From: Enterobacteria phage vB_EcoS_Rogue1 | Sequence record: NC_019718.1 | Direction: 5' to 3' (one strand) | Length of the DNA stretch: 45,805 nt | Shown: positions 19,333 to 19,641 of the stretch, piece by piece | Position numbering within the stretch: position 1 is the stretch's first letter | Layout: each line of letters begins with the position of its first letter | The notes under the pieces: model-generated | The model's input: only the letters and a program-made list of their open reading frames with translations | Told to the model about the DNA's origin: nothing | Databases searched by the model: none | Position numbers and translations under genes: made by a program

Positions 19333-19375
19333 TAGCACTAATTGCTAAACAGAAATACCAAGGAAGGTTTACAAT
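19333..19375 (+). promoter_or_regulatory. palindromic box TAGCA-CTAAT-TGCTA (19333-19347), 22-bp spacer, -10 TACAAT (19370-19375)
   Basis: Box family member located inside the tail operon. Confidence 0.5.
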
Positions 19376-19403
19376 TAAAAAACTTAAACAAGAGGTGATT
19401 GAT

Positions 19404-19535
19404 ATGAAAATTAATTTGCTTTGCACAAATGCTGAAGTTGGTGTCTATGATTTAAATGTTGGTAAAACTTATGTGGCATACTTCAATGATGATTATGGTT
19501 ATTATGAACTTTCTGATGAAGGTTTTTTCCTATGA
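19404..19535 (+). CDS. small hypothetical protein (43 aa), moron-like
   Basis: ATG after AGAGG RBS; bracketed by its own promoter box and a terminator between the M-like and L-like tail genes. Confidence 0.4.
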   Translation: MKINLLCTNAEVGVYDLNVGKTYVAYFNDDYGYYELSDEGFFL

Positions 19536-19620
19536 GTTAAGCGAGGTTGGAGTTGCTCCTTTGACTTTCTGCTGTAAATCTTTTAGTGGTGGATTGGTGA
19601 CATTCATTAAAGTAAACTAA

Positions 19621-19641
19621 GACCCTAAGGGGTCTTTTTTA
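19621..19641 (+). terminator. rho-independent terminator
   Basis: GACCC-TAAG-GGGTC hairpin followed by TTTTTT. Confidence 0.7.

What the first reader, a model, noticed from the sequence alone, without database searches (positions are those of the whole stretch)
19333..19641. Promoter-gene-terminator moron inserted between two tail genes
Between the M-like gene (ends 19331) and the L-like gene (starts 19655) lie a box-type promoter with -10 TACAAT, a 43-aa ORF (19404-19535; MKINLLCTNAEVGVYDLNVGKTYVAYFNDDYGYYELSDEGFFL) and a terminator (19621-19641). This autonomous unit inside the late operon is classical moron architecture; such genes often act in host interaction or defence evasion.
Basis: partly seen in the sequence, partly recalled or inferred. 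Interest (0 to 1): 0.45.

Follow-up and report, generated by a model that had tools for sequence, protein, structure and literature searches.

The report
Small accessory gene between tail genes
A low-GC accessory gene cassette sits between two tail genes of the T1-like coliphage Rogue1, but its real product is a 71-residue beta-barrel protein, cut to 43 residues in this record by one extra T, and the terminator belongs to the phage backbone rather than to the insert.

Summary
The window is phage vB_EcoS_Rogue1 (Drexlerviridae, Rogunavirus).

Three corrections:
1. **ORF length.** Six relatives carry an intact 71/72-codon ORF here. Rogue1 alone has T6 instead of T5 at 19523-19528. Codons 42-71 are under purifying selection (dN/dS about 0.2-0.4 against the two diverged relatives). 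Rogue1 was 454-sequenced, so a homopolymer error is likely.
2. **Terminator.** It follows gpM across Drexlerviridae, including phages without the insert. It is backbone sequence.
3. **Promoter.** It is one of 16 copies in this genome of the known T1-like 21-nt repeat aaATAGCACnnnTTGnTAAAA. Fifteen copies have a TAnnnT hexamer 19-21 nt downstream.

The moron-like reading otherwise holds. The 284 nt are absent from close relatives, GC is 32% against 44%, and two other ORF types occupy the same slot behind the same leader. The same gene family also occurs at other junctions.

The parts
18981..19331 (+). gpM-like minor tail protein gene (upstream backbone gene). Its stop codon TAA at 19329-19331 abuts the insert.
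   Evidence: ORF list. 93-100% identical to annotated minor tail proteins of BECP10, C119 and UDF157lw. Pfam Phage_min_tail on the 93%-identical gene in L011.
19333..19616 (+). Inserted segment relative to JK06, AHP42 and phiEB49. It is 284 nt in this record and 283 nt if the T-run is T5. The boundaries can slide by 5 nt because GTAAA occurs at both ends (19328-19332 and 19612-19616).
   Evidence: Junction comparison. GC is 32.2% against a genome value of 44.2%, in the lowest 0.3% of windows.
19330..19350 (+). Copy of the Drexlerviridae 21-nt direct repeat (consensus aaATAGCACnnnTTGnTAAAA). The core TAGCACTAATTGCTAAA is at 19333-19349 and contains the imperfect palindrome TAGCA-N5-TGCTA.
   Evidence: 16 copies in the window against 0.46 expected. 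The consensus and its typical placement about 76 nt upstream of start codons are described for TLS, T1, Rtp and Rogue1 in PMC11447400. It is identical in BECP10, C119, UDF157lw and L012, and a variant occurs in L011.
19370..19375 (+). -10-like hexamer TACAAT, 20 nt after the box. The weak -35-like TAAACA is at 19346-19351.
   Evidence: Fifteen of 16 boxes have TAnnnT 19-21 nt downstream. Relatives have TAAAAT (L012) or TATAGT (L011) at the same position.
19390..19398 (+). Shine-Dalgarno sequence AAGAGGTGA, 5 nt before the ATG.
   Evidence: Direct reading of the sequence. Conserved in relatives.
19404..19535 (+). The 43-codon ORF as it stands in this record (Rogue1 gp34, hypothetical protein). 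It corresponds to codons 1-41 of the 71-aa gene plus two out-of-frame codons and a stop.
   Evidence: P0004. It matches only positions 1-41 of the 71-position phrog_29402 profile.
19523..19528 (+). T6 homopolymer. Every relative has T5. The extra T causes the frameshift.
   Evidence: Alignment. Genome-wide indel scan against C119 and UDF157lw. Rogue1 was pyrosequenced and only two 454-induced frameshifts were corrected (PMC3496638).
19404..19620 (+). The full gene, 71 codons plus TAA once one T is removed: MKINLLCTNAEVGVYDLNVGKTYVAYFNDDYGYYELSDEGFSYELSEVGVAPLTFCCKSFSGGLVTFIKVN. It is an acidic protein predicted to form a six-stranded beta-barrel.
19619..19640 (+). Intrinsic terminator: stem AAGACCC/GGGTCTT, loop TAAG, then a T-run. 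This is the ancestral post-gpM terminator of the backbone. It probably only attenuates, because gpL has no promoter of its own behind it.
   Evidence: Present in the insert-less JK06, AHP42 and phiEB49. Present at the M-L junction in all surveyed Drexlerviridae, with different but complementary stems. Annotated as a rho-independent terminator in AHP24 and AHP42.
19655..20419 (+). gpL-like tail tip protein gene (downstream backbone gene).
   Evidence: Pfam Phage_tail_L on a 98%-identical gene.

Best explanation
The segment is a moron-like accessory cassette in the tail operon of the virulent T1-like phage Rogue1.

The inserted DNA is about 283 nt and low in GC. It lies exactly between the gpM stop codon and the terminator that follows gpM throughout the family. 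It brings a copy of the family-wide 21-nt box followed by a -10-like hexamer. This leader also precedes many small-ORF and DNA-metabolism genes outside the head and tail module, so it most likely acts as a host-RNA-polymerase promoter. The insert also brings a strong ribosome-binding site and one gene.

[quoted passage not shown] This is the fold of Gp54 of phage Bas11. Transcripts end at, or are attenuated by, the pre-existing terminator.

In this record the gene is broken after codon 41 by an extra T in a T-run. This is most probably an uncorrected 454 homopolymer error (my estimate about 65%). Otherwise it is a recent inactivating mutation.

The protein is dispensable for tail assembly. It most likely acts by binding a host or defence protein, in host take-over or counter-defence, and could itself be sensed by a defence system.

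**Shown:** the anatomy, the presence/absence pattern, the 71-codon frame under purifying selection, and membership of the repeat family. **Inferred:** promoter activity, timing of expression, the fold-based functional class, and the sequencing-error explanation.
For: **Identity of the window.** The 43-aa ORF is Rogue1 gp34, recorded on a 45,805-bp contig, the same length as the window.

**The 71-codon gene.**
- BECP10, UDF157lw, C119 and phiKP26 have a 216-nt CDS at this site.
- The coding difference from BECP10 is T6 against T5.
- Metagenomic homologues at 89% and 69% identity keep 71/72 codons in the same M-L slot.
- In comparisons involving the two diverged relatives, dN/dS is 0.20-0.30 overall and 0.17-0.38 for codons 42-71. 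The C-terminal PLTF.CKSFSGGLV.FI is among the most conserved stretches.

**Sequencing.** 454 sequencing, with only two frameshifts corrected. The 43-aa form exists only in the Rogue1 record. Among isolated, uncompensated 1-nt indels that separate the window from both C119 and UDF157lw, this is the only one seen in a homopolymer of five or more inside a well-conserved ORF.

**Insert versus backbone.**
- The M-L gap is 30-82 nt in 24 of the 36 surveyed loci in which both gpM and gpL were found (including the window). Each distinct short gap inspected holds a GC hairpin plus a T-run.
- Two other ORF types (64 aa in AHP24 and Sf12, 124 aa in JulesPiccard) occupy the same slot. They share the leader TAA-ATAGCACnnnTTGCTAAA, then about 20 nt, then TAnnnT, and the same 3' junction TAAACTA(A/G)G.
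- GC is 32% against 44%.

**Box family.**

**Mobility.** Distant family members (44-50% identity to the window protein) sit upstream of terS (L038) and upstream of a Pa193_gp24-domain gene (L039). Each has box, -10, SD and a terminator.

**Fold.**
- AF2 pLDDT 91.8 with six strands and an 11-residue beta1-beta2 loop.
- Gp54 is described as a rare six-stranded barrel with a prominent beta1-beta2 loop, non-essential, and a direct trigger of CapRel (PMC11578894).
- The Bas10 homologue of Gp54 is preceded by the same box and a -10-like hexamer.
- In Bas11, mutations just upstream of gene 54 lower its expression from the native promoter on a plasmid.
- The BFVD search shows many small uncharacterised Drexlerviridae proteins with this fold.
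Against: - There are no transcription or translation data for this gene in any phage.
- As a sigma-70 promoter the site is weak. TTGCTA lies 22 nt from the -10-like hexamer, and TAAACA is a poor -35. The function of the 21-nt repeat is an acknowledged open question.
- The positions of the Bas11 promoter mutations are not given in the text I could read, so the link to the box is my inference.
- The fold match rests on a model built from a three-sequence alignment. Four of the five models scored lower (85 down to 41).
- Foldseek against the PDB did not retrieve 9axb. There is no sequence similarity to Gp54: 5% identity, and hhalign finds nothing.
- The extra T could be real. In that case Rogue1 carries a pseudogene, and nothing here can distinguish the two.
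- Among the closest relatives dN/dS is about 1, but on only 7 substitutions.
Confidence: 0.6

Rival explanations
1. Tail-associated protein. The small protein is a tail-tip accessory, decoration or assembly factor. It is co-expressed with gpM and gpL from the late operon, and its position between the two genes reflects a structural role.
For: It lies inside the H-M-L-K-I-J tail module on the same strand, so late read-through transcripts must include it. The 124-aa protein in the same slot in JulesPiccard matches phrog_14592, labelled virion structural protein. One BFVD fold neighbour is labelled putative minor capsid protein.
Against: - Phages whose gpM and gpL are 93-99% identical (JK06, AHP42) lack the gene entirely.
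- The gene has its own box-type leader, like many genes outside the structural module.
- Family members also sit upstream of terS and next to a Pa193_gp24-domain gene.
- Its composition is foreign.
- Its only solved structural relative is a non-essential protein with no structural role assigned.
- Virion mass spectrometry of Rogue1 and of the AHP phages reported no such protein, although those surveys were shallow.
- The labels 'virion structural protein' and 'tailspike sialidase' are untested annotations.
Confidence: 0.1
2. Genuine pseudogene in Rogue1. The extra T is real, the gene is inactivated in this phage, and only a non-functional 43-aa fragment (strands beta1-beta3 and the start of beta4) could be made. 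The cassette is decaying on its way to the deletion seen in JK06-type phages.
For: - The record says T6, with about 100-fold read coverage.
- The gene is dispensable, since close relatives lack it.
- GTAAA repeats at both ends of the insert would allow a precise deletion to the JK06 junction.
- Loss of a Gp54-like protein can be selected by a defence system.
Against: - 454 chemistry is known to miscall homopolymers of this length. The authors checked only two suspected frameshifts, and this small gene had no recognised homologue when Rogue1 was annotated in 2012.
- Apart from the extra T, the ORF is identical in sequence to the intact BECP10 gene, with no further decay.
- All six other copies are intact.
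Confidence: 0.3
3. Regulatory spacer only. The box, the -10-like element and the terminator regulate tail-gene stoichiometry, by attenuation after gpM and re-initiation for gpL, and the ORF is incidental.
For: The post-gpM terminator is family-wide. In T1/TLS-type phages it is followed by a TATAAT-like element before gpL. The function of the box repeat is unknown.
Against: - The ORF shows purifying selection over 71 codons and has a strong SD.
- It yields a confidently predicted fold.
- The family travels with its ORF to unrelated junctions.
- The box lies upstream of the terminator, so it cannot re-initiate transcription past it.
- Rfam finds no RNA family in the region.
Confidence: 0.05

Closest known systems
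Morons of lambdoid phages (Juhala et al. 2000; Hendrix et al. 2000; cited from my own knowledge)
   Same: Extra DNA lies between two genes that are adjacent in relatives. It holds a single small gene with an upstream promoter-type element and a downstream intrinsic terminator. Its GC content is clearly lower than that of its neighbours. It sits in the late structural operon.
   Different: The host phage is virulent, so there is no prophage expression. The terminator was already in the backbone and was not imported. The promoter is a phage-family-specific repeat element rather than a standard sigma-70 promoter.
Gp54 of Escherichia phage Bas11 (PDB 9AXB; Zhang et al., Nature 2024, PMC11578894)
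   Different: There is no detectable sequence similarity (5% identity). The genomic location differs: Gp54 lies in a cluster of small genes on the opposite strand, this gene in the tail operon. Triggering of CapRel is untested here and is not conserved even among close Gp54 homologues.
21-nt intergenic direct repeats of T1-like phages (aaATAGCACnnnTTGnTAAAA; TLS re-annotation, PMC11447400)
   Same: The copy at 19330-19350 differs from the consensus only at its last base. [quoted passage not shown] The paper states that similar repeats occur in Rogue1.
   Different: The paper leaves the function open (stoperator, enhancer-binding site or UP element). It does not report the fixed-distance -10-like hexamer, the association with exchangeable cassettes, or this copy inside the tail module.
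PeSL mobile regulatory cassettes of T4-type phages (Arbiol et al. 2010; cited from my own knowledge)
   Same: A repeated promoter-plus-stem-loop motif flanks small, variable ORFs. This suggests that such ORFs are shuffled between sites by recombination between the repeated motifs.
   Different: The phage family and the motif are different. Recombination at the boxes is not demonstrated here. The insert-less M-L junction contains no box.

Membership tests
Moron (autonomous promoter-gene-terminator insert) | Extra DNA between two genes that are adjacent in related phages | tested here: met
   The M-L gap is 323 nt here and 39-40 nt in JK06, AHP42 and phiEB49, whose gpM and gpL are 78-99% identical to the window's.
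Moron (autonomous promoter-gene-terminator insert) | Own promoter upstream of the gene | tested here: inconclusive
   A box plus TACAAT belonging to a 16-copy family is present. The sigma-70 match is weak and promoter activity is untested. The indirect support comes from Bas11 gene 54.
Moron (autonomous promoter-gene-terminator insert) | Own terminator, brought in with the insert | tested here: not met
   A terminator follows the gene, but the same terminator is present in insert-less relatives and across the family. The gene's stop codon lies in backbone sequence.
Moron (autonomous promoter-gene-terminator insert) | Base composition different from the flanking genes | tested here: met
   32.2% GC against 43.9% (gpM), 45.8% (gpL) and 44.2% (genome). 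This is in the lowest 0.3% of 283-nt windows.
Moron (autonomous promoter-gene-terminator insert) | Expressed independently of the late operon (classically from the prophage) | not testable with these tools
   No expression data exist. Drexlerviridae are virulent, and no integration functions are reported for the close relatives.
Gp54(Bas11)-like small beta-barrel proteins | Six-stranded beta-barrel with a prominent beta1-beta2 loop | tested here: met
Gp54(Bas11)-like small beta-barrel proteins | Detectable sequence homology to Gp54 | tested here: not met
Gp54(Bas11)-like small beta-barrel proteins | Direct binding and activation of CapRel(SJ46) | not testable with these tools
   This needs co-expression toxicity or binding assays. 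Close Gp54 homologues are already negative.
Drexlerviridae 21-nt direct repeat | Match to aaATAGCACnnnTTGnTAAAA, intergenic, in the direction of transcription, about 76 nt upstream of a start codon | tested here: met
   19330-19350 reads aaATAGCACTAATTGCTAAAC, which differs from the consensus only at the last base. It is on the + strand, between gpM and the ORF, with its 5' end 74 nt before the ATG.
Sialidase / tailspike (the name given in relatives) | Similarity to a sialidase or tailspike domain | tested here: not met
   No Pfam, NCBIfam or PADLOC hit. No PDB sequence hit below E 0.2. The PHROG family has unknown function. The protein is only 71 aa.

The most novel reading that the evidence does not exclude
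The 71-aa protein belongs to a Drexlerviridae-wide structural superfamily of small six-stranded beta-barrel proteins like Gp54. Its members are each driven by the 21-nt box promoter and are shuffled as cassettes between gene junctions. They serve as a rapidly diversifying set of host- or defence-binding effectors, and therefore also as defence triggers. On this reading the box is both the promoter and the recombination handle of that system, which would answer the open question about the repeat's function.
Probability: 0.2. Interest if true: 0.6.

Novelty: new member of a known kind. Interest (0 to 1): 0.33.

Why it matters
**Annotation.** Two errors are corrected. Rogue1 gp34 is a truncated call of a 71-aa gene. 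The name "tailspike sialidase", propagated through four phage records, has no basis.

**Biology.**
- A rare accessory gene becomes a candidate for counter-defence or defence-trigger screens. Only about seven protein clusters were found among 5.8 billion cluster representatives. The predicted fold is the unusual one of Gp54 of Bas11, the only member so far with a known interaction (CapRel).
- The gpM-gpL junction of T1-like phages is a cassette slot bounded by the family's 21-nt repeat and a conserved terminator.
- The same repeat precedes the Bas10 homologue of gene 54 of Bas11. In Bas11, mutations just upstream of gene 54 lower its expression. This gives a concrete way to test what the repeat does, which the TLS paper lists as an open question.

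Tried and rejected
- **RNA families.** An Rfam scan of 19200-19800 at a permissive threshold gave only chance-level snoRNA or sRNA matches. An RNA gene was rejected.
- **Protein family libraries.** Pfam, NCBIfam and PADLOC found nothing for the 71-aa protein. PHROGs placed it only in an unknown-function family.
- **PDB sequence search.** Nothing useful.
- **Exhaustive HMM search of 1.84 billion representatives.** It added two 71-aa homologues. It also gave weak multi-repeat hits in giant proteins made of Hcp, Listeria-Bacteroides or SprB repeats. I rejected these as summed beta-hairpin noise after the Pfam check.
- **Second homologue search with a five-sequence profile.** It added only one fragment, so the family is truly small.
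- **Homology between the three slot occupants.** The 64-aa AHP24 type shares an ELSDE..SY stretch (pairwise E 0.002, hhalign probability 14%). This is suggestive but not established. The 124-aa type gives nothing.
- **Paralogues in the window.** None by tblastn.
- **Programmed frameshifting at the T-run.** A -1 shift on T_TTT_TTC reaches a stop after three codons. The +1 shift that would restore the frame has no slow A-site codon. All relatives have T5 and a single ORF. Rejected from direct reading of the sequence.
- **Fold searches.** Foldseek against the PDB found no significant match, and the afdb50 library was unavailable.
- **Bas11 promoter mutations.** I could not locate their exact positions in the text.

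Full report
**What the window is.** The 1-kb region around the finding matches Rogunavirus phages of the Drexlerviridae (T1-like), best BECP10 at 99.5%. The 43-aa ORF is recorded in public databases as [quoted passage not shown] on a 45,805-bp contig, the same length as the window. The window is therefore the Rogue1 genome. The flanking genes are lambda gpM-like and gpL-like tail-tip genes. A 93-98% identical relative carries Pfam Phage_min_tail and Phage_tail_L on them.

**Checking the observation.**
- The box TAGCACTAATTGCTAAA is at 19333-19349.
- TACAAT is at 19370-19375.
- The Shine-Dalgarno sequence AAGAGGTGA is at 19390-19398.
- The ORF is at 19404-19535.
- A 7-bp hairpin with a T-run is at 19619-19640.

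As a generic sigma-70 site the promoter is unremarkable. It scores 9 of 12 (TAAACA-18-TACAAT), and such matches are as frequent in shuffled sequence. What makes it non-random is the box. It occurs 16 times in the window against 0.46 expected. Fifteen of the 16 copies have a TAnnnT hexamer 19-21 nt downstream, against a chance of about 0.05 per site. An SD-preceded ATG follows 63-84 nt from the start of the box.

**The ORF is longer than stated.**
- BECP10, UDF157lw, C119 and phiKP26 annotate a 216-nt, 71-codon CDS at this position.
- In the three-way alignment, the only difference from BECP10 inside the gene is a run of six T (19523-19528) where the relatives have five. Removing one T restores a 71-codon frame identical to the BECP10 protein. 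It ends at TAA 19618-19620, immediately before the terminator stem.
- Two metagenomic contigs carry homologues at 89% and 69% identity, 71 and 72 codons long, in the same M-L slot.
- In comparisons involving these two diverged relatives, dN/dS is 0.20-0.30 over the whole gene and 0.17-0.38 over codons 42-71, the part that is out of frame in Rogue1.
- The C-terminal stretch PLTF.CKSFSGGLV.FI is among the most conserved parts of the protein.
- The 71-aa sequence covers phrog_29402 end to end. The 43-aa form covers only positions 1-41 of the 71-position profile.

**Is the extra T real?**
- Rogue1 was pyrosequenced. The authors state that two 454-induced frameshifts were corrected after targeted PCR (PMC3496638). 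A homopolymer miscall in a small ORF with no recognised homologue at the time could easily have escaped them.
- The 43-aa form exists only in the Rogue1 record.
- A whole-genome indel comparison with C119 and UDF157lw shows that most other non-triplet indels lie in divergent, mutually compensating clusters. The isolated single-base differences shared against both relatives are this T-run, two in terminator hairpins or T-tracts, and one near 2660.
- I judge a sequencing error the more likely explanation, at about 65%. A real, recent inactivation cannot be excluded.
- Programmed frameshifting is unlikely. A -1 shift runs into a stop after three codons. The +1 shift that would be needed has no slow A-site codon. 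Every relative has a plain single ORF.

**The terminator belongs to the backbone.** JK06, AHP42 and phiEB49 lack the insert. Their junction reads ...ATGCAGTAA-ACTAAGACCCTACGGGGTCTTTTTT-ATTGGAGAAA..ATG, which is the same terminator directly after the gpM stop codon. AHP42 and AHP24 annotate it as a rho-independent terminator.

I surveyed 36 loci, including the window, in which both gpM and gpL could be found. The M-L gap is 30-82 nt in 24 of them, and each distinct short gap inspected holds a GC hairpin plus a T-run. The stems differ between lineages but stay complementary (GACCC, GGGCCC, GCCCC, GCGCCC/GGGTGC, GCCGC, GCCCGC). In Rogunavirus there is no room for a promoter between this terminator and gpL. 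By inference the terminator must therefore be leaky, acting as an attenuator.

**The insert.**
- Relative to JK06 the window has 284 extra nucleotides (283 with T5), lying between the gpM stop and the terminator.
- GTAAA occurs at both ends (19328-19332 and 19612-19616). The JK06 junction therefore equals a precise deletion between these repeats, or the reverse event.
- The insert is 32.2% GC against 44.2% for the genome and 44-46% for its neighbours. That puts it in the lowest 0.3% of equally sized windows.
- The gene is rare. It is present in 4 distinct phages among 50,697 phage records, and in about seven clusters among 5.8 billion cluster representatives.

**The slot is shared by other cassettes.**
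- AHP24, AHS24 and Sf12 carry a different 64-aa ORF at exactly this position. JulesPiccard carries a 124-aa ORF there.
- All types begin with the same leader directly after the gpM stop: ATAGCACnnnTTGCTAAA, then about 20 nt that often contain a short inverted repeat, then TAnnnT.
- All end with TAAACTA(A/G)G in front of the terminator.
- The flanking genes are 78-100% identical (gpM) and 83-100% identical (gpL) to the window's, while the ORFs are unrelated or nearly so. The only trace is an ELSDE..SY stretch shared by the 71-aa and 64-aa types (pairwise E 0.002, hhalign probability 14%).
- More distant members of the 71-aa family (44-50% identity) sit elsewhere. One is between a terminator and the small terminase gene (L038). 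The other is in front of a Pa193_gp24-domain gene (L039). Each has a box, a -10-like hexamer, an SD and its own terminator.

This is the behaviour of a mobile, self-contained expression cassette.

**The box is a known element of unknown function.** The 2024 re-annotation of phage TLS describes 18 intergenic copies of a 21-nt direct repeat, aaATAGCACnnnTTGnTAAAA. The copies lie in the direction of transcription, about 76 nt upstream of start codons. The authors note similar repeats in T1, Rtp and Rogue1, and list the repeat's function as an open question (PMC11447400). The copy here (19330-19350) fits that description.

In the window the boxes mostly precede small ORFs and DNA-metabolism genes outside the head and tail module. 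On that basis I infer an early or middle expression class for the 71-aa gene.

If TAnnnT is the -10 element, the imperfect palindrome TAGCA-N5-TGCTA is centred near -42. That geometry is typical of activator-dependent promoters. This is my inference only.

**The protein.**
- It is acidic, with 9 Asp/Glu against 4 Lys.
- AlphaFold2 predicts six beta-strands with an 11-residue beta1-beta2 loop. Confidence is high in the best model (pLDDT 91.8, pTM 0.77), but the alignment has only three sequences and the other four models scored 85 down to 41.
- Against BFVD the model matches the independent phiKP26 model (TM 0.96). It also matches many small uncharacterised proteins of T1-like phages.

Zhang et al. 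describe Gp54 as follows (PMC11578894):
- a six-stranded barrel with a prominent beta1-beta2 loop, a topology "very rare in nature";
- non-essential in the laboratory and of unknown function, possibly an inhibitor of another defence system;
- a direct trigger of the CapRel(SJ46) toxin-antitoxin defence, through unfolding and clamping of the sensor domain;
- close homologues of Gp54 do not trigger CapRel.

I located the Bas10 homologue (Gp57). It is preceded by AATAGCACTTTTTGTTAAAA, then 19 nt, then TATCAT. In Bas11, escape mutations "immediately upstream" of gene 54 reduce its expression from the native promoter on a plasmid. This is indirect support that box-type leaders are promoters used by host RNA polymerase. 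The positions of those mutations are not given in the text I could read.

In the 71-aa family the beta1-beta2 loop (G13 V14 Y15 D16 .. V19 G20) is invariant even in the 44-50% identical members. That suggests a binding surface.

**Interpretation.** The moron-like reading survives in modified form. The unit is a low-GC promoter-plus-gene cassette dropped in front of a pre-existing terminator in the tail operon of a virulent phage. It is dispensable, because close relatives lack it. It is kept under purifying selection where present, and it is exchangeable with other cassettes.

A tail-structural role is unlikely, because near-identical tails are built without it and the family also sits at non-tail junctions. 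The most likely role is binding of a host or defence component. That rests on predicted-fold analogy and on the general behaviour of such genes, and no experiment supports it. In Rogue1 itself the gene is either mis-sequenced or dead.

**Annotation.** The name "tailspike sialidase" attached to the 71-aa protein in four phage records has no support in Pfam, NCBIfam, PHROGs or PDB searches.

**Verdict.** The finding is a new, rare member of known kinds: a moron-like accessory cassette, a Gp54-like predicted fold, and a T1-type 21-nt repeat leader. Interest is moderate to low. The main value lies in the annotation corrections, a candidate for defence-interaction screens, and a testable link between the family's enigmatic repeat and promoter function.

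Noticed in passing
window 1187, 2050, 12049, 19333, 28871, 34351, 36747, 37432, 38118, 39406, 39670 (+ strand); 26496-26512, 43728-43744, 43926-43942, 44888-44904, 45723-45739 (- strand): There are 16 copies of TAGCACnnnTTGCTAAA (up to 2 mismatches) against 0.46 expected. Fifteen have TAnnnT (mostly TATAGT or TATATT) 19-21 nt downstream, often followed by a TCATCGAAACGA-like leader. The spacer usually holds a short inverted repeat or AAGGATGG. In four copies (12049, 39406, 43942-, 44904-) it holds a full GC hairpin with a T-run. This is the T1-like 21-nt repeat whose function is an open question (PMC11447400).
   Followed up: partly
L042 (phage IsaakIselin = Bas10, MZ501077) 15280-15360, minus strand: The Bas10 homologue of Gp54 of Bas11 (the CapRel trigger) is preceded by the same box (AATAGCACTTTTTGTTAAAA) and by TATCAT 19 nt later. 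The box overlaps the end of the upstream gene. The published Bas11 escape mutations upstream of gene 54 that lower its expression may therefore be the first functional hits in a box-type promoter.
   Followed up: partly
M-L junctions of L004, L008, L010, L015-L034 (positions about 1850-1930 in the IMG/VR loci): An intrinsic terminator directly after gpM is conserved across Drexlerviridae. The stem sequences differ between lineages but remain complementary. In T1/TLS-type genomes it is followed by a TATAAT-like element before gpL. In Rogunavirus it is not, which implies read-through is needed for gpL-K-I-J.
   Followed up: partly
window about 2659-2661 (ORF 2547-2924): There is a single-base difference from both C119 and UDF157lw. 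The window has one 125-aa ORF where the relatives annotate two ORFs (44 and 79 aa, one of them called 'fusion protein'). This is another possible sequencing or annotation frameshift, in one record or the other.
   Followed up: no
L008 (phiEB49) 622-1101, and record positions 25858-26163; L009 (JulesPiccard) 1006-1380: Other junctions of the tail module also vary. phiEB49 has an HNH endonuclease gene between the tape measure gene and gpM. tblastn also places a homologue of the JulesPiccard 124-aa protein just downstream of the phiEB49 gpL gene. In JK06 a homologue lies at a distant site (19316-19678).
   Followed up: no
Records KC579452, KT825490, OQ243221 and MW286156 (the CDS homologous to window 19404-19620): The 71-aa protein is named 'tailspike sialidase' in four phage records and in UniProt. 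No domain, profile or structural evidence supports the name. It looks like a propagated annotation error.
   Followed up: yes
window 25207 and 19635: These are single-base length differences against C119 and UDF157lw in a G-run of the terminator hairpin after the tail fibre gene and in the T-run of the M-L terminator. BECP10 and JK06 share the T6 form at the M-L terminator, so that one is natural variation.
   Followed up: no
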